This document shows positions 13,320-60,400 of a DNA stretch of 64,000 nucleotides, one piece after another. The number at the start of each line of letters is the position of its first letter. Within the stretch, counting starts at the first letter, position 1. The notes under the pieces are model-generated. The model did not search any database. It worked only from the letters and a program-made list of their open reading frames with translations, and was not told the origin of the DNA. Position numbers and translations under genes: made by a program. Origin of the DNA: Tubulanus polymorphus (Eukaryota > Animalia > Nemertea); assembly GCF_964204645.1 (NCBI RefSeq), contig NC_134026.1:29546150-29610149 (forward strand), written 5' to 3'.

Positions 13320-16300
13320 ATGGACAAATATCATGTGCTGGACCTTATTGGAGAAGGTTCTTTTGGACGTGTTTACAAAGGTCGAAAGAAATTAAGTGGA
13401 CAGGTAAATAAATAGATAAAGTCAACTCAGTTAAAGTCGTCATTGGATGTGTCGTCACAATCATCTCTATTTTTGAGTCCCAATTCAACAGTTGGAGAAT
13501 TAGTAGATTCAATAAAAGTAACTCGTAATATGGATGAGAAATAGAATTAATGGTCATCTCAACTACGATAAAGCTACAATAGTGAATTAGTAGCATACAC
13601 ACACCTCTGTACATCTATTTTAAATACATTATACCTGAGGCTCTATGGCGTTTAAGCCCACAGTGGAAATAAACAATTAATTAGAATATAAGAATTTACA
13701 CCGATGGGTATGACAGTATCGCATTTAGAATATATTGAGGGTGTATGCGGCACCATGTGAGTTTAGTTTAAGTTGGCGTGATTTTATGGTCCAAAAAAGA
13801 ATAATGATGGGTTGTAGTTAATTTACTGATGAATGATCATGAATTGTGGAAGATAAATTATGATGCTCCTCTAGCCAATGCTTAAATATCTTTTGGTTTT
13901 TCCAATAAAAGTTAAGTTTGTATCATGAAAACATGAGAATTTATAGACAATTACAATGACTTGCAAGTTTTTAGATGTATTATGTTTGAAAGTTGATATC
14001 TACAATGATCCGTTGTTTGTATTGTTTGTATTTCATACACAGGTTGTTGCTTTGAAATTCATTGCTAAAACCGGACGTTCGGAAAAAGATCTGAAAAACT
14101 TACGTCGCGAAATCGAGATAATGCAAGGTCTACATAATGATAATATCATTCAAATGTTGGATAGTTTCGAGACGGATAAAGAAGTGGTAGCTGTGACTGA
14201 TTACGCTGAGGGTGAATTGTTTCAAATACTTGAAGATGATGGCAGTTTACCCGAGGAACAGGTATCACATCATTCATTCTGCCGCCTGTACCCACCATAA
14301 CCTAAAATATTCACTATTTGACCGGTGAAGTCTAGAAGATCTGATTTTAATATTTCTTAACTTTGGGTGTCATCAGGTGGCCACCCTTTTTATTTGTACA
14401 TCTCCCCTCAGCCACTACCTGTTAAAATATCTGCTGCCCCTCTACACATTAAGTTGATGTCAATGAGCAATTTCTATTGATGAGTTCATCCCTGAGTAGG
14501 ATGGTGATGGCAGCAGATTCAGCATAATTATGTACTGTTTTCTTTTTTTAGAAAACCCCCAAACCACTAGCAAAGCTTGCATCCACAATGTTACTTGATA
14601 GTGAATGTGGCCCCTCTTAAAATTCTTAAAATATGGACAATTCAATTATATTATGATAGACAGAGGTGTATGGTCATCCCTATTACGTACGGTATTACGA
14701 GTTATTAGCGAATGTACTGTGTATTTATTGTATAGGTTCAAGCGATCGCGTGTCAACTCGTATCAGCGTTATATTATTTACACAGTCATCGAATTCTACA
14801 TCGAGATATGAAACCTCAGAATATATTACTTGGTAAAGGAGGAGTCGTAAAACTGTGTGATTTCGGTTTCGCGCGCTCTATGAGTATGAATACATTAGTT
14901 CTTACTTCTATCAAGGTAAATTACGATCGTTCTCATTCTTTCAATACAAATGAATTCGCATCAATTCTGATATTTATTTTGTTAATTACAATTCGTTTTA
15001 GGGAACGCCGTTGTATATGTCGCCTGAACTGGTTGAAGAACAACCGTATGATCATACAGCAGATCTCTGGTAGATATGTTAAAATTCTTTTAAAATATTC
15101 TTCATCAACTCAAGGGATCTGGATTGAGTTGCTCAAAAGTTGATTAAAGATAGCCATCACTTTAGATACCGCCGTAAAGAACTTTTAATTGTCAATGTCA
15201 ATTACCCACAGCTGCGACTAACTTTTAAGCATACGACATAAACTGACCCCAATTGTTGAAGAGTTGGTTCAAGTTAACCATCAAAAAGATACTATAGTGT
15301 CAATGCAATTATAGTTGTTACTATGTCAGTTATTTCCACAGGTTGCAATAACTGGCGGCCCTTAGTGTTTTGTAATGTTTTATGATTGTGATCCTTGATT
15401 CCTTTTCAATATTTACTACTTTTATTACATTGTATTAAGGAATGTGTTAAAACCCATTTATTTCTAGGGCTCTCGGTTGTATTCTGTACGAGTTGTTTAC
15501 CGGAACGCCACCATTTTACACGAATAGTATATTTCAATTGGTCAGTTTGATCATCAAAGATCCTGTTAAATGGCCCAAAAATATGTCTCCAGTTTTCAAA
15601 GATTTTCTGCAAGGATTGTTAACGAAAAACCCAAGAAATCGTTTACAGTGGCCCGACCTTTATCAACATCAGTTTGTAGCAGATGGAGTTAAAGGTATTT
15701 AGAATTTTGCGATAATCAAATTTCGTGTGAAAGCAAAAGGTTTTCTTAACTTTTTTGATTAAAGTTTCTGAGGAAGATAAGAATTTGTTGAGTCCATTTA
15801 CGACACCTCCGACAGCATCAGTTGTATTAGCTAAAGAAAAACAAACTAAAGAGAAAGCTCATCCTCCCGGAACATCGAAAATTCTTAGCAAAGCAAGACG
15901 TAAAGCCGCAGAGGAAGATGCTAAAAGGGTATGTAGTAACACGCCTTACTTCTGAGTTAGAATAAAGCTTGAAATTTTTTCAAATATTCGATGGTTTAAA
16001 AAATCTTTTTAAAGACAAAAACAAGAAAAGTTGAATCGGCTGGAAAAGAACGAAATGATGAGAAACAACATCCAGCAACAACAGCAGCAGCAGCGGCAGT
16101 AGCAGTAGTGCCCCCTCAGCCACAATCCGAGAAAGTGACGACTGATTGGACTAAAACTGGTGTCAGTCAGGTAGGATTTTATCATTCTAGAATTCAATCA
16201 GTAGATCTCGTGGTTGATAGGTGTAAATTGTATGTTTATATATTGCTATGTATTTGTATAGGCTGTAAACCCGACCCCGCGTCCTGATAGAATCAGTAAA

Positions 16301-22557: not shown

Positions 22558-23329
22558 ATTGATTATTATTCTGATTCATGGCCCTGTTCAGTAGTTAGTC
22601 CTTGGTAAAAACATTAAAATGGATTAATTTTAACTTATGAAGTCACATTTAACTGTAGAACTCGGTCCTGATGTATAAGAATATGTTGCATTTATCATCA
22701 GTTTTGTATTGTATTAATGTGTGACCTGCAGTGAATGATTTTATTATGTTATATGTAGTTCTCTGTAGTTAGTGTAGTTGCCCCTGTCATGGTTGGTCAG
22801 ATCTATGTTCAAACTGCTGCCTGGAATTGAACTGTGTTAAGATATGTTAACCTGCTGTGCGGTGTTTGTACTTAACTTTCCGTCCATGAAACACATTCCA
22901 TCGCTTAAAAACTTTCCAGTTATTCCCTTCCAGTTTTCAAGAATATCAAAACTTTGGGGAAATCTCTGCAAATATTTGAGCAGAATTATTTTCTGTGTTA
23001 TTTTGATTATTTGTATTGTAGTGCTGGTCACAAAATAAACATGTAGGTAAACTTTACCACCAATAATTCAATTTGTAGATTTATTTCTTCGATTTTTGGA
23101 GGTGTGGTGATTAACATGAGTTAGTACTGATGCATTATTTCTTCAAAAAACTGCAGCTAAGCTTCCAGGATAGGAAGGACTTAGGGCTTAACAATAATGA
23201 AAAGAATATCAATGTTGTCGAGCATTACATTTAGCATGACTTGGCATCCTCTGGGATTCGATCGGCTGGCATCAAGACTACCACATGTTGGTACCACCGT
23301 ACTGTCACGGGGAAATTCGCAAACCGATA

Positions 23330-23850
23330 GAAAACTACCGGATAATATGGGCTTAATTCCTTTTAGAAAGATATCCACAAGAAAACTACAACAACCGGAT
23401 AATATGGGCTTAATTCCTTTTTGAAAGATATCCACAAGAAAACTACAACAACCGGATAATATGGGCTTAATTCCTTTTAGATAGATATCCACAAGAAAAC
23501 TACAACAACCGGATAATATGGGCTTAATTCCTTTTTGAAAGATATCCACAAGAAAACTACAACAACCGGATAATATGGGCTTAATTCCTTTTAGATAGAT
23601 ATCCACAAGAAAACTACAACAACCGGATAATATGGGCTTAATTTCTTTTAGAAAGATATCCACAAGAAAACTACAACAACCGGATAATATGGGCTTAATT
23701 CCTTTTTGAAAGATATCCACAAGAAACTACAACAACCGGATAATATGGGCTTAATTCCTTTTAGAAAGATATCCACAAGAAAACTACAACAACCGGATAA
23801 TATGGGCTTAATTCCTTTTAGAAAGATATCCACAAGAAAACTACAACAAT
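23330..23850. repeat. Minisatellite, about 9 copies of a 57-bp unit
   Basis: GATAATATGG at 23341, 23398 and onward. Unit: AGAAAACTACAACAACCGGATAATATGGGCTTAATTCCTTTTAGAAAGATATCCACA. Confidence 0.95.
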
Positions 23851-46393: not shown

Positions 46394-47217
<824 letters not shown>

Positions 47218-48334: not shown

Positions 48335-49083
48335 TCATTGCAAGAGTACCTTTTCTTCGTTGTGACTAAGAGACGATTCACGATAAAAGGCAACAAGTTT
48401 ATTGAGCGAATTGAAGCTCATGACTCCAAAAATATAATTTCCATAACTGTCTCTCGTTATATCAAATTGCAGTACGCCATTGCTGCGTCTGAAACAAGGT
48501 TTATGACGTGTCAACCATGTCGCGGAAAGGGAAACGGTCGTAAATAAGATGCTTACGTGTAAACTGAAAGTGAGAAACCACCGGGTATCGAATCACTATC
48601 TCGAATGAAAAAATTCCTCTCCTCTCTTTGTTGTGCCATTAAGTCGGCTTCTTCGTACGTCATTTTGCCAAAGAACCACCTAAAAATGTTATTACATCAC
48701 TGTCTGTCCGTCATTGCATCAAATAAGAATGTGCACTGGTTTTGTTTGGATTCAATACTTATCATTTTATAAAAGTTGGGAGGTTGGATTAATTCTTACC
48801 CAATATCATCTATTTCTATGTGGTTCAGTGGAATGACCCCTTCTCTTCCATCTAATTCAGCCCTTATCCATTTTCTATTTTCGCACGGACGTTCTAAAAC
48901 CTAGAAAAGAACGGGTTGTTTTTTTTTAAGGAAAACAATACGGATGAGGAAACCGAATATTTGACGCATCCTACGATTTAGACCGTAGCCTGCCACGTTT
49001 ACTACCTTTACACATGTACCCTTGTTAACACTGAGTTCATCATTAGATCGCGCTTCGAAGTCTTGCGTCACCGTGGCTTCCAT
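48335..49083 (-). CDS. GRB2/Drk-like adaptor, SH3-SH2 only (divergent copy)
   Basis: Same four-exon layout: MEATVTQDFEARSNDELSVNKG / WIRAELDGREGVIPLNHI / WFFGK...FFIRDSDSIPGGFSLSV / ...FNSLNKLVAFYRESSLSHNEEKVLLQ*. The reading frame is intact. Confidence 0.85.
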
Positions 49084-50183
49084 TGTAAATGCTATATTGG
49101 TCAGAACCCCGATCCTGCCGCTTATGGGCCTACCGCGTTGTGTTTACACAGTGAATCGTTATGCGGCGTGCACGGGCCACATCGGCGATTTATGAATAGT
49201 AATAGGCTACGCTTTATAAGCGCAAAGGAATTAGCTTTACCATCGATGTTGTTTAAACTAAGAAAATGTTGTGAATCTTGTCTTATTTGGTGATTAGACT
49301 TAAAGCATTAACTAGATTGTCGACGATAGAGCGACCGGCCAGGGACCGGGGGGGCCTTGGCGACAATGAGATCTTGTTCTGCATTTGAAATGGCCGCCGA
49401 TTTTTTGGGTTGTGCGATGTGACGGCTACTAAAACTATTGCTAAACGAATTCCGTTTCTATATTTAATTGTCATATGCGCGTTGCGTTGCAGGGGACTGT
49501 TTGAACGATCCCGCTTGACGAAACTGGTTCGGTCCGTGCAGTAGTCCGGTTGCCAAATCCGAGGTGTGAGAGAAGAGAAGTTGTCCTAGATGTTTATTAG
49601 CCTTAAAAAGCAGATCCAACCTCAAATATCGGATGATTCAATTCTCACCAACGACATTATTCATAGCGGGTAAATGTCCGACGGAAATTGATGGTAAACT
49701 TATGTGGTGTCATAGAATAGGCTGGGTGCAAACTTTTAAAAACGAATGACACTATCAATAATATCACTAAGTAAATTCACAAAGCAGTTTCACTTCCGGG
49801 TTGATTCATTCACTCGGACCTGAATCATGAATGATTTAAAAGTCCTTTCTTTTTTCAAATGATAGAGCGTTTATTTCTGAGAGTCAAATATCGTGGGTGT
49901 TGTATAAAACTTAACATAGTTATTTACTCATAACCTTTAATATGATTGTAAGTCATTGTTGTACTTATTGTTGAAGAATCAAGTTGTATGATATTTTCTG
50001 TTCACGACACAACTTACTAGCAGTTACTCATTTCAAGTTAACGATTAGGTCATTCACTACTTATGACCATGACTGAACTGTTGTAATTAAATTTTCAGGT
50101 ATGATCAATTCATACAGTCTTACATGAAGAACCATGCGACAGATCACTTATGATAAGTTCAAGATAATCAGCAAAACTTGAAT

Positions 50184-53100
50184 ATGCTTAGAAATAGAAA
50201 CGAGAATATCACTTTCAATAATTGTGAAGAGTTTTCCGAGCAGTACCTGCAACAGATAGATGAATTGTACAGGCGATTTAAAAATGATCCGGAGTCACTG
50301 CATGCATTCCTGCAGCAGCAACATAGTTCGGGAAAGGTTTCTAAAAAGCGCAAAAAAACATGGATCAAGTTATTTTCACGTAAATTTAGTTCGATGAATC
50401 TTGACAAAAAGGGTTCTGCAGCTGTTGCAATGTCGTCACAAAAAGTGAAGCAAACCAAAGATGTTCAGAAACGGCCGAAAAATAGGTGTTTAGTTGCTGA
50501 CGCGGTATCCGACGGACTAGTGAAAAGTAAGATTGTTGTTGAAGCAAAGAAAACAAAAACGTTGAAGGTGAATGATGACAAGAATGATATTGATACCTTA
50601 GAGACTGCCTTGAAGAGGAATAGTGAATATAAAGAAATGCTGTATAAGTTGTTAGATGACACGGATAAGCAATGTTACAAATTAAGTGAAATTCTCTCTT
50701 CGGGACAAATGCAAAATCTACAGTCATTCCTCTTTTCTACCGAAGAGCATCAAGATTGTGAATATCATCTAAAAAAAGAGCACCTGATTATGGTTATGGG
50801 ACAAGTGAATTCGGGAAAAACAAGTTTGATAAATGAGATTCTCGGAAAAGGATATTTGCCGACATCTGAATTGCCGTGTACAGCACGAATAGTACGTATA
50901 AAGTACAATAAAGAGCCGTATGTACGTTTATTAGATAACGGAAAGTTGTTGGAAGAACAAAAACTTAATAAAAAGGTTCTACATAAGTTCATCGATTTGG
51001 AAGATGTGGAACGTAATGATTTGAGTGAAGTTAGTCATGTCGTCGAAGTTGGTTTAGATTGTGAACTACTGAGACGTGGATTACAAATAATGGATTCTCC
51101 CGGATTGAGTGAAAATGACGTATTAAATGAAAGAATTGAGATGTTGAGCAAAGAAGATTTACAACTAATGATTTATGTTATAGATGGAAACAGATCGCTC
51201 AATGAAAAAGTAAGTTATCAACAAATAGGTAAAAAATTCAGTGGAATCGCATTACAACGAACTTCAGGTGACCAGAAAATATGTTCGATATAACGAATTA
51301 TCGGTTATGACGAACTCAGAATATTGTCCCAAATAGAGCAGTTGTGATACTTTCATACTGGATAAAACACTTATTATACCTTCGTTTCTCCTTAACGGCT
51401 GGGTCATTTTGTAAACTGCGATAACTTTTTATAACTGCAAGGTCTGTTATGGTAAGCTTGATTATGATTTTAGAAAAAGTATTGTACAGAATAGATAGAT
51501 AGGTGGCCTCAACTTAAAAGTTCAGCAGAAATGAGAAACAAGGTTGCAGTTTTTTAGTCTAATAACGGATAGTTTGATATCCAATATGAAAGTATTACTA
51601 CAGTCCTATTTGGGACAAAATTCTGGGTTTGTAAAAACCGATACATCGTTATGTTTCAGTTCATTATCACAAGGTTCATTTACTACCGTATATTAAAATG
51701 ACAATTCTTCTGTATTTCAGGATCGAGTCTTTTTATTTAATGTAAAAGCCAAATCTCCGAAAATGAGAATCTTGTACGTTTGTAACAAATCCGAAGAGAA
51801 TGAATACGCGTCGTCGATGGATTGCGCTACGGATGACGAAGAAGAAAATCAAGTCAAGACCAAAAACTTTATCGATAAAGGAACATGGACGTTCGGAAAT
51901 CTGCAAAAGTTCGGACTCATCGATAAAGATCTTACGCGAGAGCAGTGCTCGGATTATTTTGCAGTTTCGTGTCACAATGTTAGGAGGGCTCGTCGAAAAA
52001 ATCAGAAAACTAAAGATACCGATAACTTCAACAAGTTCGTCAATTGCGTTGCTAAAAACTACATAAAAACAGGAAATCGACTACTAGAACACGCTGTCTG
52101 TAGATTAAATCTCATTCAAAAACGTGCATTCGATTTCTGTATCTCAGACAGATTTCTTAATTTGTCTCGGCCTCAAAGGCTGAAGGAAAATATCCAATCA
52201 GTTAAAACGCTCGGACTTAATCTGATGAGAGAATCAGTCGACGGTATGAACATGCGAGCTCGTGATCTAGCTCTGTCTATGAAACAAATGATCGAAAGCA
52301 AAGGAGGCGACCTTACCGAGAAAATCATTCACATGACATTCAGTCCAGTTTTCATCAAGAAAGAAGTTGAAAAGAATTTCTTGCTCGAAAATTGCCGGCA
52401 ACAAGTCCAAGATTTTATACTGGTTCAATTGAATTCAGACGTCGAGCAACTGTTATTTGATGAGTGGAAGAGATTTGTGGATTCAATTCTTTGTTGCATC
52501 GAGCACTTAGTTGAAACATTTCATCCGTACGAAGAATACGTACAAGATCATCTGAAGTTTTCATTTAACTCTTTACTGCAGTTTGAATTCGAAGCGATCA
52601 ACTTGGGTGAAGTTATGAATTTCGCGTACCTAGAATTCGCCGTAAAAACTTCTCGAAATTTGGAAAACGTGCGCGCGGCGTTGGTCGGCTGGCAGCTGAC
52701 TGACAAATGGAAATTACAAACCGCGAAGAATATTTTGAACGCGATCGACGTGGATAAACTCATTCAGAGATCGCACGAGAAAATGAAGAAGAGTTTGAAG
52801 GCTTGCGATAAAGAATTTCAGAACTGTTTGAACGCGCTTGAACAACTATCCAACACACGGTGTTTAGCTTTACCGAAAATGCAAGATGATTTATTGAAAC
52901 TGATGCCTATTTTCGGATTGACTATCTGTAAAACCGATGCTCTATCGCGTATTATAAAACAAGATCATCTCGAAGAAATGGGTGATTTCATCGCACAAGG
53001 TTCACGCAGTACAATTTATTCGTGTCGCAACAACGAAAATGTCATCATCAAGAAAACGAAAAATCCACAGGATTTTGCCAATGTGTACAACTTCATGAGG

Positions 53101-54291
53101 TATGTTCGATATATGAGTATAACATCAGGGTTCCAAATGTTGTTTTGTTTAAAGTCGTTTTTCAAGTGCCCTGACACTCTCTAAAACGATCCAGCCTTTC
53201 AGTCTAAACGATTACCGGTACTTTGCTTTAAGTCATAGAACCTTAAGTCTCATTTGGTGGATGTGCATTTGGGACATTAGTTTGTAGCAAACGTGTGGAA
53301 TTCCCTTCCCCACCTGCTACATACATGATATTGACTCCCAGCATTCAACGGTCATCAGCTCAACACATTGCTATTCAAGTCATCACCTGCGTCTAGAGTG
53401 CGCCTTGGTTTTTAACTATTCACGTGTTGTTTCTTATTCTCTTGTAATTATCAATTTTTCAGATTCGTAAATCACGAAGATCTGTTGAAGCCGATCGAGA
53501 CATCATTCGATTCCGAATTCGGATTGGTGCTGCTGTTACCTAGGTTACGATATACACCCGACTCGTTGGAAGCGTACAGTTTGTTCGATCTTCTGAAGGC
53601 TGGAATTCGTGAGTTTACGCTCAACGATAAAGTTGAAATATTCTATCAGCTCGTCTCCATCGTTTACGCTATGTCGGAGAAGAAATTCCGTCTCACAGAT
53701 CTCCGTCCTAATAATATTTTCATTATTAAACATGAGGTAAGTGAAATGTCTATTGCATAAAATGAGTCCGTGCTAAACCAATGATGTCATTTACGTTTAT
53801 ATCACCAGATGGCATGACAAGCACTCAGTCTTACTTTGTCAAAATTAGTTATACCTGTTATTCTCTTTTAGGAAGGAAAATTCAAAGTGAAAGTGAATAT
53901 ACTGAAAGTTATTTCTCTGGAAATTCCATATCCAGATGGCACGTTACCGTTTCACTTCGCTCCAGAGCGGTATGATTCTAGTATGTCCAGGGCTATCAAT
54001 CCGTATCACGAGGTTTACAGTCTCGGCGTGCTGCTATGGATGATGCTAAAGGGTACATTCTATCAGCCGCCGTGTTTACGTGACGCTAACCTCGCTCAAA
54101 TCAGATCGAAAGTCACGCAGTTAGCCGTAAGAGATGATATTGTTGCTAGTTTGGACGATATTTCGGGCACAAGTCGCGACATCACACAATTAAAGACTAT
54201 CGTAGTTAGCTCCGTGAACGAACCTGAAACACGAATTAGACTCGATGATTTATACTCAACGGTTGAGGAATACAGAGCACATTTAAACTAG
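50184..54291 (+). CDS. Dynamin-like GTPase, helical region and degenerate protein kinase fusion (DSTYK-like), about 1032 aa
   Basis: Exons 50184-51209, 51721-53099, 53463-53736 and 53872-54291 splice in frame (3099 nt). GTPase motifs GQVNSGKT, PCTA, DSPG, NKSE. Kinase-like motifs IAQGSRSTIY, VIIKK, LTDLRPNNI, FHFAPE, EVYSLGVLLW. Confidence 0.85.
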
Positions 54292-54357: not shown

Positions 54358-54623
54358 CAGTGGAAGCGCGTTAAGACCTCAGATAAAATAACGATTTTTC
54401 AGATATAACAAACCTATTATTGGGATAATAGGCTATCCTGTTACATTTTTCTTCGTCTAATCATACTTATTTATCGTTCAATAATGTAACATCGTAATGA
54501 AAATAAATTTCAATTTCAATTATTTCATCCTAAATGAGATTACATTAGTAATATCATACTGACTGGATGTAACGAACTATCGGTTATAACAAGACGTAAG
54601 TTGGTTGAAATGAGGTTCCACTG
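54358..54623. mobile_element. Tc1/pogo-like MITE
   Basis: CAGTGGAAGCGCGTT ... AATGAGGTTCCACTG|TA inverted ends. Confidence 0.55.
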
Positions 54624-55882
54624 TATAAGCTTATGAATGAAAATGTTTCCTTGAGTTTTTGTTGATTCTATGCCAATGAACTGCATTGTGCCATAATGTG
54701 AATTTGAATTTATTCTCTACTTACAGAAAGTGAAATCGTATTTGATGCATGTTACAGTTTATACATCTTATGTTTTATCTAGAGTTTAATGTTAATTTGC
54801 CGATATGTATATTCGTAATACATGTATATGGATAATTGTAACTGTATTTTGTATTTGGGTATATATTACGTTTTTGAACTATTACATAATTCAGCTATAT
54901 CTGGTATTTGAAATTTATGCTGAATTATGTAATAATTCACAATTCAAATATCTATTGTTATGGGGACTTGATTGAAAATTGTTGCTTCAAAATGAAATTT
55001 ACCTGTAAATGATGTCAGAATTCATAGTTCAATATTCATTACGTATCTCATTTCTCATAGGCCTATCTCATTGATCTATTATTCGCATGCATAGGGAAAT
55101 ACTTAGCTTCAAAAAATAATTTCAAACTGCTTCACGTTTATATCTGCAGAATAAATGAATAAATTAGAAGTTTTCTTTCTGTTGTCACTTGCTTGGAATT
55201 TCATCGTTAAAACGGAACGAACAAAGGAAGAGCTACACAATGTTTCGAGCTGCTGAGGATTCTACTTAGGTTTCTTTCCTTCTTTGCGTTATGCTTCAGC
55301 TTGGGTAAATCTAACAATATCAAGGATATCAAAGAACGAACGGGTATTTGGCTTGTTCGAGTGTTTATTTGATTTTCCTCTCAAATTAACGCATATAAGT
55401 CTTATTTTCGGAGATTGCTTCCAATCGACTGAGAACCAAATCGTTTGAACAGTCAGTTTTCATTCGGGCAGAAGAATTCGCTAAGGAGCGAAATGATGCA
55501 TATTGATGTTAGTATATATAAATGGCCCCGTTTATCAATTTCACTAATACTGCACAGTTTTTTGTCGAGAGAGAATATTTTCCCAGTGCGTCTAAGGTAG
55601 GTTTAAATCGCAAAGTTTATTTTCATATGACGGGAGAAGATAGATTAGTAGGAATATTAATAAAGAGCGTTTGATATTTCAAAAAGTACATCCGCTATGA
55701 TCGGTATTCATTTTTCAAATTAATTCGGTATATGACTAGCGGTAGAAACAAAACTATAATGGAAGTTAAAAATTCCTGTACTTTTTGAAAAAGAATGATA
55801 TAAGATTATAACATAATGATATCAAAGAGTCCGAGGATTTGGGCTATTCATAAATACGTAACTATTTCAGGATTTTCGGAAA

Positions 55883-56953
55883 ATGTCTACGACTAATTCC
55901 AGTGGTTTTGATTATTACAATTACATGGATTTGTGTTTCTTCGACTACTTTCCAATGGACTTCTTATTGCGATTGAGATGGTTTTATCGACACTCGAGAC
56001 TCTATTTCTGGCTACCACTCGGTGTCATCAGTAACATGTTAGCAGTAGCTGGAAGTTTCGAAAGGGCCAGGCGAAGTTCCGCTCATTTGTTCATGTTCGT
56101 TCTGGCTTGGGCCGATATTACAGTACTAATGAACAGAACCATATTTCACGATATCCTACAAGTAAGATTGCGGTACCAGTTCAGTCAGATCGGTTGTAAA
56201 ATAGAAGGATTTGTAGATAGGTTAGCATTTCCTCTATCGTCGTGGCTTTTGGTTCTGATGACGGTAGATCGTACAGTAGCTATTACTCGACCGCTCAGCG
56301 CTCATCGACTGTGTACGGCCAAACGCGCTTTCATACAAATTATTACTTTGGTTTCAGCGTTGCTTATATTTAACTTATCTTCAACTGTTTGGCTTTATAA
56401 AGCGACGAAGCATATATTTTGGATAAACTGCATACCAAAATCAGAATCGAAAGTACTAGTCGACGCCTACGAGGCAATTGTTAGAAGTCTCGAATCATAT
56501 TTACCATTTTTGTTGATAACGGTTTTGAATGGTATTATGGCCACTTCGGTTCGTAGGGCCATGAAAATTCAAGCCGAAATGACCGGCGCCAAAAAAACCA
56601 ATCAAGCCGGCAATAGAGTGACGGTTATGGTCGTTATAGTTTCCGTTTCTTTTCTGTTATTAATGGGTCCTTTTAGTTTATCATACATTCTATTTACTGT
56701 TGGCTTTGACAGTTCAAATGACGCGATTAATTACTATCTGAGCCATTGCGACGGACCGGGTCCCATATTCACCGTGTTGAAACATATCGCCGAATCGATG
56801 GTTGATTTGAATTATGTAATAAACGGATACATCTACGTGGCCACTAGTTCCCAGTTTCGCTCGGATATTGCTCGAGTTTTTTGTTCAGGAGGAATCGTCA
56901 AACTCAAAGAGTCAATTGGTGGATCATCTAAGAGTAATGATGGAAACCTGTAG
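55883..56953 (+). CDS. Intronless class A (rhodopsin-like) GPCR, peptide- or chemoreceptor-type orphan
   Basis: 356 aa with 7 hydrophobic segments, N-terminal NSS sequon, TM2 LAWAD, TM3 Cys and MTVDRTVAI, TM5 YLPF, TM7 LNYVINGYIY. Confidence 0.9.
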   Translation: MSTTNSSGFDYYNYMDLCFFDYFPMDFLLRLRWFYRHSRLYFWLPLGVISNMLAVAGSFERARRSSAHLFMFVLAWADITVLMNRTIFHDILQVRLRYQFSQIGCKIEGFVDRLAFPLSSWLLVLMTVDRTVAITRPLSAHRLCTAKRAFIQIITLVSALLIFNLSSTVWLYKATKHIFWINCIPKSESKVLVDAYEAIVRSLESYLPFLLITVLNGIMATSVRRAMKIQAEMTGAKKTNQAGNRVTVMVVIVSVSFLLLMGPFSLSYILFTVGFDSSNDAINYYLSHCDGPGPIFTVLKHIAESMVDLNYVINGYIYVATSSQFRSDIARVFCSGGIVKLKESIGGSSKSNDGNL

Positions 56954-57447
56954 CATGGGTTCCAGATCACTTAATACCCGAATCTGGAACTCGTTCTGGG
57001 GCTCGTTCTGGGACAACGGCCACGTTTTGCACTTTATTTCCTTACGACTTTCAAAGTGTCGCCGTATCAATAAAAAACATGTTAGAAGTTAAAGTTTACG
57101 TTTATTTGATATAATTTAATTCTATATGTTGTGGTAACATTGATGGATAATGTACTAACGCATGCTAAAAAATATATAAATGACATGTTTGATCAAGTTT
57201 CATGTTTGTAAGTTTCTCGCAGTGTTGTATTGGTTTTAACTGTTGCGCTGTAATTGGATGCTGGAGTGACCGGGATGCGGTAAGATTCTGCTGCAGGGAA
57301 TTCGCTACCTCCCTGTTGCACATCGCGTAGCGCGCAACAGGATAACAGATATCAACAGTTGACAATTTCAGTCGAGAAAAGCTTGCAACAATTTACAGAC
57401 GGAAGCTTTCATCTTTTCTAGAAAAATTATTTTGATAGTGATAGAAA

Positions 57448-60400
57448 ATGTCATCAAGTCCGATCGGTATTTTGTGGACGATTTTGTCAATTATGGTTGC
57501 GGGCATCTGTTCGTTTGCGTTTATGCAGCCGTATTGGATACTGGAACCTGATAAATTAAACTGTTTCGGGGTACTGAACTATTGCGTTAAAGATCCTCGT
57601 TCACAGGACAAAGTGAGACAATTTTGTGGTTTTTACGGAGGTGTTTTTAACTATTTTTCTATACCGAGCACGTCTTGGAAAGCTACATGCGCATTGTTTG
57701 GAGGGGGTATCGCGCTCATGGGTTTAAGTTGTTTATTCTGTTTCTTCATGAATGTTGCTCCGAAAGCGCACGTCCGAAGACTGTCACTTATCAGTGGAAA
57801 CATACAAGTTTTAGCAGGTAAGACTAAAAAAACAACTCATTTTACAATCAAACAATTGAAACATTTTTAATCATTCATCGCGATTTGAGATTTCAAAGTA
57901 AAGAAAGACTCGATCAAACTAATAAGCAGTATCGTCATGACGACACAACACGGCATAAACGAATTATCCTTCGCCGATTTATGTTTTGTAAACTGTTTTT
58001 TATTTTGAAAATCTTCCCGCCGCGACAAATCAACGTTATCCGTGCTGGGTGAATACATCCTCATCACAGCGTCTACGTATGATGATATTGGATTTGCGTG
58101 ATTTAAAACACAAAAACAATTTGCTGATCGACATAGAATTCCGAGTGGACACAAAAACTGCACAAAAAGTTCACCCGACTGCCATAAATCAAAGGCTGAA
58201 AATAAGATTACAGTTGTTTATAACAGCTCCTCCTTCTCACACTTGGATTGATAATGGGCAGTGATAAATGCGAAATGGGAGAATCTATCTAATTAAAAAT
58301 ACAACATGCGACAAAGTGACGTCATGACCCTTATGTTACTCAATACACTGATCGAATGTAGATGTTAATGACTGGGTTATCAGTACAGAGGATTAGCCGC
58401 TAATCTGATGTCTGCAACTATCAACTTTTCAAGCTGCTGATGGCCCTGCACGCCTTCTGAGTCTAAATATGAAACGTACGACCAGTTCGAAATGAATTTT
58501 CTTTTTTTTCCCAGTTGGTATTTCTTCATTAATCGATCTTCCCGACTATTTTCATGCGCTTTTTTCAATATTTAACTAAAACAGTTTTTGTCCCCTTTTG
58601 AAATGGATAAACTGATGATTTACAGCGATAGACTCGCGTTTCAGACTCATTCAACCATTGGCGCCATGCTTGGCTGATTTAATCGTCCTATGCGACAGAT
58701 AAATGCTCAGTGATTACACAGATTTTGACAGATTACTCAGTCTTATCTGTGCCGGAATTTACCAGTCTTGGACAAGATTAATCGAAGAGATCTCAGCCCC
58801 TTGCCTGTCAGGGGTGGTGCCATTATACGTGCTTAGATTAATACCATTGACCAACGACCGTATTTCTCATTATGCATCCAACAATAAAATATATTTATAG
58901 AATTTATACACATATTGTCACAAATAACACACTTAGAATGTATGTTAATTACTAATGCATTAGTTGGTATTCTACACGTGTTTTTGTGGTGGTAGTTTTT
59001 ATTTGTAGGTGGTAGAGTTCTAATCAGCCGCGATTACCGGATGTTACGAAAGGTTTCGCGTCAAATTAGCTTTTACTACATCGCCATACCATTATACGTC
59101 CCTACGTCCCTAAGCCCGAGTAAAAAATCTGATCAACCATTCAGTACGTGCAATAGCCAATCTCTGCTAATACCTGTCATAAAAATCACAGCAAATAACA
59201 ACGGGAGATAATGACTGTTAAGAAAAAAGTAAACGAACGGGATGTGTTATTAGTTTTTCGAATTTTCTTTCCGATGACGACGTCGTCACTCTGATTTTTG
59301 AGTTATTCTTACAATCTGAACTTAGCGACTTCTACTGAAGATGTAGGATTCCGTATTAATCATCAGTCAGAGCTCAACATGTGAGGAGGGAAGAGAGATC
59401 TGATGAGATCGATGTGTCTCGCTATCCTCTCTTTCTACTCACTTCTCCTCTGGGATCAGTTCCTTTTGATGCCACCTGATGATTATATTGATTGATAATG
59501 TCGATATATTTTACCTAATTTAACATGTGACTCATGCGCTCTTGAATATCTGAGTCCATCCAACGCGACGTATTGAAATTCTGATGTCACTTTAAGGATT
59601 TACTGAAACATTTTTAATTAATGATATAGTCCTGGGAATAGAAAATTAATCCTGCGAGAAATTACATGTCATCGTTGTATGTATGACTTTTTAGACTAAC
59701 ATCTCATCGGATCGATAGAATTTCAAGACATTTTTGCTAGTAAAAGGTTGTGATAATCCATCCCACCTATGATTCAACAATGGGCGGGATCTGGGCCTGT
59801 CCGAAATACGACAACCAAGAACAATACATTAATTCTTTTTACATTCAGGATGTTCAAATCACCAAAACTAGATTTTATGAGAGGATTTTATATTTTTGCC
59901 TCTGCGACTTGAAGAATATACGTAAATGATTACGAAAATATCAGATAGATTTTATGAACTGTTGGTAACTAATCAACTACAGGAAAGACTGTTCATTCTC
60001 TCGACTTTATTGATAACATATGTGACCGATTCAGAAGCGCGAAGTAAGTGATATATCCAAGTGTTAATGAGATGTTAGGGTGGAACCTATCACGACGAGA
60101 TGCGTCGACTGTGGTCAGTTTGCGATGACTTTATTGACGATCGACTGTAACTTACTGATGACTCACATTTCTCGTCTGTTTGTCTGATTAACTGTTATTA
60201 ATATCATAAATCATTGTGTGAGTGTCAAACCACGTCGTATCCTCAGAGATTTCTCCGTCGTCCGTTTATTTGACTAAAAGATCCATTTGATGCCAAACAC
60301 CAAAAGAGTGGCAGGTATTCATCACGCCATAAACCATCATGAAAAACTTTGTTTGACCTTATCGTTCTTGAAAATAATTTTCTTTATGAATATTAGTAAA

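What the first reader, a model, noticed from the sequence alone, without database searches (positions are those of the whole stretch)
50184..54291. Dynamin-like GTPase fused to a pseudokinase: an apparent inverse of DSTYK
Seen: complete G1-G4 motifs of the mitofusin/bacterial dynamin-like type (GQVNSGKT, T in PCTA, DSPG, NKSE), then a long helical region, then a kinase fold. The kinase has a degraded Gly loop, HRD changed to LTD and no DFG, but keeps the beta-3 Lys and a FHFAPE like DSTYK's IHMAPE. There is a basic KKRKK patch near the N-terminus. Known: vertebrate DSTYK has an active kinase and, as I recall, a degenerate N-terminal GTPase-like region. Inference: a little-studied family with an active GTPase and a scaffold pseudokinase, possibly acting in membrane remodelling or immunity.
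Basis: partly seen in the sequence, partly recalled or inferred. Interest (0 to 1): 0.75.

Follow-up and report, generated by a model that had tools for sequence, protein, structure and literature searches.

The report
Bacterial-dynamin-like GTPase with dead kinase
This ribbon-worm gene makes one spliced message for a protein that joins a bacterial-dynamin-like GTPase with its four motifs in place to a kinase domain missing key catalytic parts, and it belongs to an old invertebrate sister family of the vertebrate kinase DSTYK that likely remodels or tethers membranes.

Summary
Four exons (50184-54291) give a 1032-aa protein identical to Tubulanus polymorphus LOC141900306; one RNA-type contig joins all four; 6 of 6 coding variants are silent. 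The predicted fold is Nostoc BDLP/mitofusin-like (residues 131-761) plus a kinase domain lacking DFG, the alphaC Glu and His-Arg of HRD, but keeping the catalytic Asp. It is not the DSTYK orthologue: Tubulanus has a separate true DSTYK. In 57 full-length relatives there are three states: DSTYK (GTPase motifs lost, kinase intact), both intact, and GTPase intact with pseudokinase (this gene; its subfamily spans corals to amphioxus). So the 'inverse of DSTYK' is reciprocal loss from a doubly intact ancestor that still has living descendants. Kinase-intact and pseudokinase paralogues share a scaffold in brachiopod, hemichordate and amphioxus. Likely mechanism: GTP-driven dimerisation on membranes, with the pseudokinase as regulator, probably with a kinase-intact paralogue; this is untested. 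I found no paper on the family in 9 searches; the scan noted it before in oyster, Trichoplax and a protist.

The parts
50098..50183 (+). Transcribed 5' leader before the start codon, behind an AG acceptor; holds four upstream ATGs with short frames (50101, 50124, 50134, 50150)
   Evidence: RNA-type contigs of X2 and X5 begin at 50098; upstream ATGs
50184..51209 (+). Coding exon 1 (residues 1-342): N-terminal extension, first neck helix, most of the GTPase domain (G1-G3)
50343..50357 (+). Basic KKRKK patch (residues 54-58) at the start of a predicted helix, in an extension not shared by relatives
50799..50822 (+). G1 / P-loop GQVNSGKT (206-213)
50874..50885 (+). G2 / switch I PCTA (231-234), as in Nostoc BDLP
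51093..51104 (+). G3 DSPG (304-307)
51210..51720 (+). Intron 1, 511 nt, GT..AG; holds repeated DNA
   Evidence: joint in X2 and high depth
51721..53099 (+). Coding exon 2: G4, BDLP-like helical neck, trunk and tip, kinase N-lobe up to alphaC
51784..51795 (+). G4 NKSE (364-367), Glu in place of the usual Asp
51997..52960 (+). Helical stalk (about residues 435-756); no transmembrane segment; tip (about 610-665) only weakly amphipathic and of lower model confidence
52978..54288 (+). Pseudokinase domain (about residues 762-1032), across introns 2 and 3
53100..53462 (+). Intron 2, 363 nt, GT..AG
   Evidence: joints in X2 and X5
53463..53736 (+). Coding exon 3, with catalytic loop LTDLRPNN (53692-53715; D881 and N886 kept, His and Arg lost)
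53737..53871 (+). Intron 3, 135 nt, GT..AG
   Evidence: joints in X2 and X5
53872..54291 (+). Coding exon 4: DFG site replaced by KVNILK (53890-53907), subfamily signature YP....PFH and APE (to 53967), stop at 54289-54291; transcript runs on to at least 54406

Best explanation
The gene encodes a spliced, conserved paralogue of DSTYK made of a bacterial-dynamin/mitofusin-like GTPase and stalk plus a kinase domain without DFG, which likely acts as a membrane-remodelling GTPase whose pseudokinase regulates rather than phosphorylates. Shown: gene structure, single transcript, motif states, paralogy to DSTYK, an old subfamily (C1) in cnidarians, nemerteans, brachiopods, hemichordates and amphioxus. 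Predicted: the BDLP-like fold with the kinase domain following the last stalk helix. Inferred by analogy with BDLP, Cj-DLP1/2 and mitofusins: GTP binding dimerises the G domains and opens the stalk; the protein binds membrane peripherally (no transmembrane anchor; possibly through the stalk tip or the basic N-terminal helix); assembly tethers or bends endomembranes. Inferred, weaker: it assembles with a kinase-intact paralogue (class B, present in this species as P0027), so that G-domain pairing brings pseudokinase and kinase together and couples membrane assembly to phosphorylation. DSTYK would be the branch that kept the kinase and the stalk and lost GTP hydrolysis.
For: One contig joins all exons. 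6 of 6 coding differences in other runs of the species are silent, three in the pseudokinase. Best solved relatives by sequence: BDLP 2j68 E 1.9e-9, Cj-DLP 5owv, Fzo1, MFN2. Fold: Foldseek best BDLP 2j69 E 1.5e-17; VIA-align BDLP Z 21.1, rmsd 6.4, 586 aligned over residues 131-761; MFN2 Z 23.5, rmsd 14.2, 388 aligned; kinases Z about 18-19, rmsd 3. G1 kept in 9 of 10 C1, 21 of 21 C2, 10 of 10 B rows; HRD and DFG-type motifs in 0 of 31 C rows and 26 of 26 A+B rows. The GTPase is the best-kept domain of C1 (45% against 31% stalk and 31% kinase, Tubulanus versus Lineus). C1 is one branch with SH-aLRT 100 (full length), 99 (kinase columns left out) and 95 (kinase only). C1, C2 and B genes share a scaffold, by equal contig length and partly consecutive accessions, in Lingula, Saccoglossus and Branchiostoma belcheri. 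Cj-DLP1/2 hydrolyse GTP only as a heterotypic pair (PMC6104087, passages). Zebrafish Dstyk is needed for fusion of carriers with the notochord vacuole (PMC7012607, passages) and DSTYK sits on late endosomes/lysosomes (PMC6981171, passages).
Against: No biochemical, localisation or expression-pattern data exist here. The protein has no transmembrane segment (highest 19-residue hydropathy 1.17) and its stalk-tip helix is weakly amphipathic (moment 0.36, below its own stalk helices at 0.6-0.66 and below most B and A rows), so the membrane contact is uncertain. G4 ends in Glu, which could alter nucleotide preference. In Tubulanus the gene is not clustered with paralogues: tblastn with six family proteins found only this locus and an unrelated kinase in 64 kb, and P0027 lies on another contig. 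Clustering elsewhere may only reflect tandem origin. Fast divergence of C and B against DSTYK (stalk 27-31% against 78%) fits an immune role as well. Zebrafish Dstyk's vacuole role needs its kinase activity, which this protein probably lacks.
Confidence: 0.5

Rival explanations
1. It is a cell-autonomous immune effector, working like Mx, GBP or IRG GTPases: it assembles on pathogen or pathogen-vacuole membranes, and the pseudokinase is a sensor or a decoy for pathogen effectors.
For: Much faster divergence than DSTYK over the same species pair; several paralogues per genome (seven genes found in Tubulanus; many in hemichordates); none of the named B or C rows among the 37 of 57 rows with an organism name is from a vertebrate or arthropod; four upstream ATGs could allow translational control. 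Likeness to Mx/GBP/IRG biology is recalled, not tested.
Against: The subfamilies C1, C2 and B are old and recur across phyla rather than arising anew in each lineage. The six coding variants seen are all silent. No infection data were found.
Confidence: 0.23
2. It is a GTP-gated signalling switch, working like Roco/LRRK proteins: nucleotide-dependent dimerisation lets the pseudokinase switch a partner kinase on or off, with no mechanical work on membranes.
For: GTPase-then-kinase architecture; no membrane anchor and weak tip helix; an invariant surface of the pseudokinase (Y913, P914, P919, F920, H921, D881) suggests a kept binding site.
Against: The whole BDLP neck, trunk and tip are kept (586 aligned residues), which a pure switch would not need; class A and B rows mostly carry a basic amphipathic tip helix and one basal row (P0067) a hydrophobic one.
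Confidence: 0.17
3. The kinase domain is an atypical but active kinase that works without the DFG aspartate, as CASK does (recalled), so the protein is a doubly active enzyme.
For: D881 is invariant (10 of 10) and N886 and R883 nearly so in C1; K786 and APE are present in this protein.
Against: DFG site is three residues shorter and lacks the motif in 31 of 31 C rows; alphaC Glu is Val; two of three Gly-loop glycines are gone; beta-3 Lys is Arg in about half of C1; the kinase domain drifts as fast as the stalk, unlike in classes A and B (31% against 84% and 54%).
Confidence: 0.07
4. It is the ordinary DSTYK orthologue, a mis-joined pair of genes, or a decaying duplicate.
For: Databases label relatives 'DSTYK-like'; the row has a long branch (1.14 changes per column).
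Against: A separate true DSTYK exists in Tubulanus (P0209/P0213/P0217; 48% to fish DSTYK, 22% to this protein); grouping this protein with DSTYK orthologues is rejected (p-AU 0.00035); single spliced contig; silent variants only.
Confidence: 0.03

Closest known systems
DSTYK / dusty protein kinase (RIPK5, SgK496); seen here as fish P0065, scallop P0062, Tubulanus P0213
   Same: Homologous end to end: profile-profile probability 100, E 4e-72, 856 columns through GTPase, stalk and kinase; same order of helices and strands in the two models.
   Different: DSTYK orthologues lack G1 and G3 (0 of 16 each; G1 0 of 68 in a second set) and keep HRD and DLG; this protein has the reverse state, is 22% identical to its own species' DSTYK, and evolves much faster.
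Nostoc punctiforme BDLP (PDB 2j68/2j69) and Campylobacter Cj-DLP1/Cj-DLP2 (5owv)
   Same: Best sequence and fold matches; G1-G3 align directly (LPS..PCTA, DSPG); neck, trunk and tip are all matched.
   Different: A eukaryotic kinase-fold domain follows the last stalk helix; no clear hydrophobic paddle; spliced animal gene.
Mitofusins (MFN1/MFN2, Fzo1)
   Same: Same GTPase subfamily and helical bundle (MFN2 Z 23.5, Fzo1 Z 22.6).
   Different: No transmembrane hairpin at the tip; carries a pseudokinase; sequence match is weaker than to BDLP.
Doubly intact DSTYK-like paralogues (class B: Tubulanus P0027, Lineus P0009, Lingula, Saccoglossus, amphioxus)
   Same: Same architecture, G1, G3 and G4 intact in 10 of 10.
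   Different: They keep HRD and DFG-type motifs (10 of 10). They carry only automatic database names; I found no study of them.
Roco/LRRK GTPase-kinases and kinase-pseudokinase pairs such as KSR-RAF or STRAD-LKB1 (recalled)
   Same: GTPase and kinase fold in one chain; a pseudokinase beside an active sister kinase.
   Different: The GTPase here is of the dynamin/BDLP type, not Roc-COR; any pairing with a kinase is untested.

Membership tests
DSTYK orthologue group | Falls within the DSTYK branch; reciprocal closeness to vertebrate DSTYK | tested here: not met
   Outside the 16-row DSTYK branch; p-AU 0.00035 for joining them; a true orthologue exists in the species
DSTYK orthologue group | Intact kinase motifs (HRD, DLG, alphaC Glu) | tested here: not met
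   LTD, KVNILK and Val797
DSTYK superfamily (GTPase-stalk-kinase paralogues) | End-to-end homology with DSTYK over all three domains | tested here: met
   hhalign probability 100, 856 columns; kinase domain groups with DSTYK against 10 other kinases, SH-aLRT 93 and 96
BDLP/mitofusin-type dynamin-like proteins | Dynamin-type G domain with G1-G4 | tested here: met
   Dynamin_N 80.1 bits; alignment to BDLP; G4 has Glu for Asp
BDLP/mitofusin-type dynamin-like proteins | Neck and trunk helical bundles | tested here: met
   Predicted model matches BDLP, Z 21.1, rmsd 6.4, 586 aligned
BDLP/mitofusin-type dynamin-like proteins | Lipid-binding paddle or anchor at the trunk tip | tested here: inconclusive
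   Tip helices present but weakly amphipathic and of pLDDT 62-71
BDLP/mitofusin-type dynamin-like proteins | Assembly-stimulated GTP hydrolysis and membrane binding | not testable with these tools
   Needs purified protein
Mitofusin | Transmembrane hairpin at the stalk tip | tested here: not met
   Highest 19-residue Kyte-Doolittle mean 1.17
Pseudokinase | Kinase fold lacking at least one of beta-3 Lys, HRD Asp, DFG Asp | tested here: met
   Kinase fold Z about 18-19; DFG absent, Lys and HRD Asp present
Pseudokinase | No phosphotransfer activity | not testable with these tools
   Needs assay
Heterotypic DLP pair (Cj-DLP1/2 type) | Paired genes | tested here: inconclusive
   Shared scaffold in Lingula, Saccoglossus, B. 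belcheri; no paralogue within this 64-kb window
Heterotypic DLP pair (Cj-DLP1/2 type) | Physical hetero-oligomer needed for GTP turnover | not testable with these tools
   Needs co-expression and assay

The most novel reading that the evidence does not exclude
Animals ancestrally had a second bacterial-dynamin-type membrane machine besides mitofusin: linked GTPase-kinase and GTPase-pseudokinase subunits that co-assemble, with G-domain pairing switching the kinase. This gene is the pseudokinase subunit, and vertebrate DSTYK is the surviving remnant, a pseudo-GTPase with a kept dynamin-like stalk, which would explain its unexplained role in vacuole and lysosome fusion.
Probability: 0.35. Interest if true: 0.85.

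Novelty: new variant of a known kind. Interest (0 to 1): 0.62.

Why it matters
It gives a structural reading of the N-terminal two thirds of DSTYK, which a zebrafish paper I read in passages calls 'non-catalytic regions' (PMC6981171): they are a decayed BDLP-type GTPase and a strongly kept stalk. DSTYK controls vacuole fusion by an effector not yet identified (PMC7012607). The invertebrate paralogues with intact GTPase motifs make the question testable: does the family itself tether or fuse membranes, and is the kinase switched by G-domain pairing? The family is also a natural set of reciprocal pseudoenzymes from one ancestor.

Tried and rejected
No whole genome is held, so the Tubulanus paralogue count (seven genes) is a lower bound from protein searches. 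Run search: no RNA holder listed on record; the spliced contigs are the only expression evidence and give no level or tissue. Complex prediction of the pseudokinase domain with the kinase domain of P0027: no verdict (score 0.00, alignments not used); it counts neither way. Fold searches with the fish DSTYK model were filled by kinases and did not test its N-terminal part; sequence profiles were used instead. Atlas search of DSTYK 1-650 without kinase clusters gave Dynamin_N clusters at 0.77-0.80, a lead only. PDB search with the whole-family profile showed only kinases in its top 60. The careful tree did not finish, so supports are SH-aLRT from quick searches; the AU test of C1 plus DSTYK did not finish. 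The last regex (catalytic Asp) was badly formed and is not used; the Asp count is. The alignment search added only two family members. Earlier-findings look-up by sequence returned nothing. Literature searches listed no paper on this family or on a dynamin-like domain in DSTYK; the library lacks most subscription papers, I saw most hits as listings only, read no supplements, and did not see the original description of dusty kinases. Rejected: mis-joined genes, pseudogene, DSTYK orthologue, mitofusin, and a conserved role for the KKRKK patch.
Full report
Observation. The region holds four coding exons on the + strand (50184-51209, 51721-53099, 53463-53736, 53872-54291) with GT..AG introns of 511, 363 and 135 nt. 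Joined, they translate to exactly the 1032-aa database protein P0001, LOC141900306 of the nemertean Tubulanus polymorphus. A 3300-nt contig of run X2 crosses all three junctions, and run X5 of a second study crosses junctions 2 and 3; run X1 covers the locus unspliced. The runs' type is not on record, so RNA is inferred from the splicing. Six single-base differences fall in coding sequence in these runs, and all six are silent, three of them in the kinase domain. Pfam gives Dynamin_N 80.1 bits (cut-off 27) and Pkinase 31.0 bits, just under its cut-off of 31.7.

Anatomy. An AlphaFold2 model from a 75-row alignment has mean pLDDT 84.1 and pTM 0.82. Residues 1-75 form three short helices, 72-130 are disordered, 136-172 is a long neck helix, 200-435 the G domain, 440-756 long helices, and 762-1032 a kinase fold. 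Foldseek ranks Nostoc BDLP first (E 1.5e-17), then IniA, Cj-DLP1/2 and mitofusins. VIA-align gives MFN2 Z 23.5 (rmsd 14.2, 388 aligned), Fzo1 22.6 (10.8, 336), BDLP 21.1 (6.4, 586, residues 131-761) and kinases up to 18.9 (rmsd 3.0, 254). By sequence alone the G domain is also closest to BDLP (E 1.9e-9). There is no transmembrane segment and the tip helix is weakly amphipathic. G4 is NKSE; Glu stands there in 5 of 10 members of the closest subfamily. In the kinase domain one of three Gly-loop glycines, K786, D881, N886 and APE remain; the alphaC Glu is Val797, His and Arg of HRD are lost, and the DFG site reads KVNILK, three residues shorter than DSTYK's KITDLGFCK. There are 205 residues before G1, against 35-96 in the nine closest relatives, so the KKRKK patch is particular to this lineage.

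Family. Searches gave 168 proteins. I kept the 57 that have both the family's N-terminal region and a kinase domain at full length, and left out fragments, bacterial GTPases and unrelated multi-kinase proteins; 37 of the 57 have an organism name. They fall into three states. Class A, DSTYK orthologues (16 rows): G1 0 of 16, G3 0 of 16, HRD 16 of 16, DFG-type 16 of 16. Class B (10 rows): all four 10 of 10. Class C (31 rows): G1 30 of 31, G3 26 of 31, HRD 0, DFG-type 0. I drew the classes from these motifs, so the kinase counts are partly circular; the trees are the independent check. The full-length tree (875 columns, LG+G4, quick search) separates A (SH-aLRT 100) and C (95), with 9 of 10 B rows together (99). 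This protein lies in a 10-row subfamily C1 (100) with Lineus, Lingula, Acropora, Nematostella, Glandiceps, Saccoglossus and Branchiostoma. C1 holds at 99 without the kinase columns and at 95 on the kinase alone. Pfam agrees: Dynamin_N passes its cut-off in 10 of 10 C1, 10 of 10 B and 0 of 16 A rows (C2 rows were not scanned). The Atlas's nearest clusters are mollusc and cnidarian Dynamin_N-plus-kinase proteins (0.96), then chordate DSTYK without Dynamin_N (0.92).

Relation to DSTYK. C1 and DSTYK profiles align over 856 columns with probability 100. A profile of the N-terminal part of 47 DSTYK rows scores this protein's G domain at 69.7 bits and three bacterial dynamin-like proteins at 14.7-21.8 bits, while 13 kinase-only controls score at or below zero; hhalign of DSTYK against those three gives probability 95 over 170 columns. 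So DSTYK's N-terminus is a decayed GTPase of this type. Fish DSTYK stands in for vertebrates; human DSTYK was not retrieved. Tubulanus has a true DSTYK on another contig, 48% identical to fish DSTYK and 22% to this protein, and holding this protein with the DSTYK rows is rejected (p-AU 0.00035). In a kinase tree of 49 rows rooted on 10 unrelated kinases, a doubly intact unnamed row (P0067, long branch, hydrophobic stalk tip) branches first (96), then A plus B (92) and C1 plus C2 (85). The simplest history is a doubly intact ancestor, one loss of kinase motifs before the cnidarian-bilaterian split, and loss of GTPase motifs in DSTYK. The support of 85 is weak and long branches are involved; the shared shortened DFG site favours one loss.

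Genomic context. By equal contig length, C1, C2 and B genes share an 880-kb scaffold in Lingula (B and C2 with consecutive accessions), a 297-kb scaffold in Saccoglossus (accessions ending 236, 237, 239 for C1, B, C2) and a 9-Mb scaffold in Branchiostoma belcheri. I could not view these scaffolds. In this window the gene stands alone, between two GRB2-like genes and a GPCR; its kinase-less closest paralogue P0013 is on a contig of the same length, and the class B gene P0027 on another. Between Tubulanus and Lineus, identities for G domain, stalk and kinase are 45/31/31 for C1, 43/27/31 for C2, 51/31/54 for B and 58/78/84 for DSTYK; one-to-one orthology of the C and B pairs is assumed from the trees.

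How it likely works. BDLP-type proteins couple G-domain dimerisation to membrane binding at the trunk tip, and the Campylobacter pair turns over GTP only as a heterotypic complex (PMC6104087, passages read). I infer the same cycle here, with peripheral membrane binding, and a pseudokinase that regulates through a kept surface (invariant Y913, P914, P919, F920, H921, D881), probably on a kinase-intact paralogue. The endomembrane setting is borrowed from DSTYK: needed for fusion of carriers with the notochord vacuole, kinase activity required, effector unknown, no mention of dynamin or mitofusin in the text (PMC7012607, passages); on late endosomes and lysosomes, N-terminus drawn as non-catalytic regions (PMC6981171, passages). 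DSTYK is distinct from RIPK1-7 (PMC9573974, passages). Against this reading stand the weak tip, the lack of a neighbouring partner gene in this species and the absence of any assay. An immune role and a pure signalling switch remain open.

Novelty. The parts are known kinds and databases already tag relatives with Dynamin_N and kinase families, under the name 'DSTYK-like'. Nine literature searches listed no paper describing the family, its three states or the GTPase ancestry of DSTYK's N-terminus; the library is incomplete and curated databases may already note the fold. The scan noted the family before on other DNA. What this case adds is proof of one transcript, a true DSTYK and a doubly intact paralogue in the same species, a defined old subfamily and shared scaffolds in three phyla. 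Verdict: real, a new variant of a known kind, interest 0.62.

Noticed in passing
window 48340-49083 (-) and about 46394-47184 (-): Two GRB2-like SH3-SH2 genes in tandem, head to head with the finding; the nearer copy is divergent (40-52% identity over three exon pieces) and got no Pfam hit in two pieces tested.
   Followed up: partly
window 50098-50183 (+): Four upstream ATGs with frames of 5-15 codons in 86 nt of leader; transcripts begin right behind an AG acceptor, so a further non-coding exon may lie upstream.
   Followed up: no
window about 51200-51650 and 54430-54630: Contig depth 20- to 60-fold above the rest, with loose ends: dispersed repeats in intron 1 and behind the gene.
   Followed up: no
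window 54416-54518 and 53764-53774: A 103-nt deletion allele behind the gene in runs X1 and X2, and a cluster of seven differences in intron 3 in X1.
   Followed up: no
window 55862-56953 (+) and 57445-57870 (+): An intronless rhodopsin-family GPCR and an LHFPL-family gene follow the finding.
   Followed up: no
window about 14598-15103 (+): Exons of an ordinary kinase with HRD and DFG, recalled as STK36/Fused-like.
   Followed up: no
window 23181-23726 (-): A tandem repeat of about 63 nt giving a spurious 181-codon frame.
   Followed up: no
protein P0013 (Tubulanus, LOC141900522): Closest paralogue in the species (29% over 661 residues) ends just after the start of the kinase domain: a kinase-less member or an incomplete model.
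   Followed up: partly
proteins P0037 and P0052 (hemichordates): C1 members whose GTPase motifs are also damaged (G3 lost; G1 ends GKK in P0052): double pseudoenzymes.
   Followed up: partly
protein P0067 (unnamed Logan record): Doubly intact, earliest-branching row with a transmembrane-like segment at the stalk tip (hydropathy 2.61), a possible model of the ancestor.
   Followed up: partly
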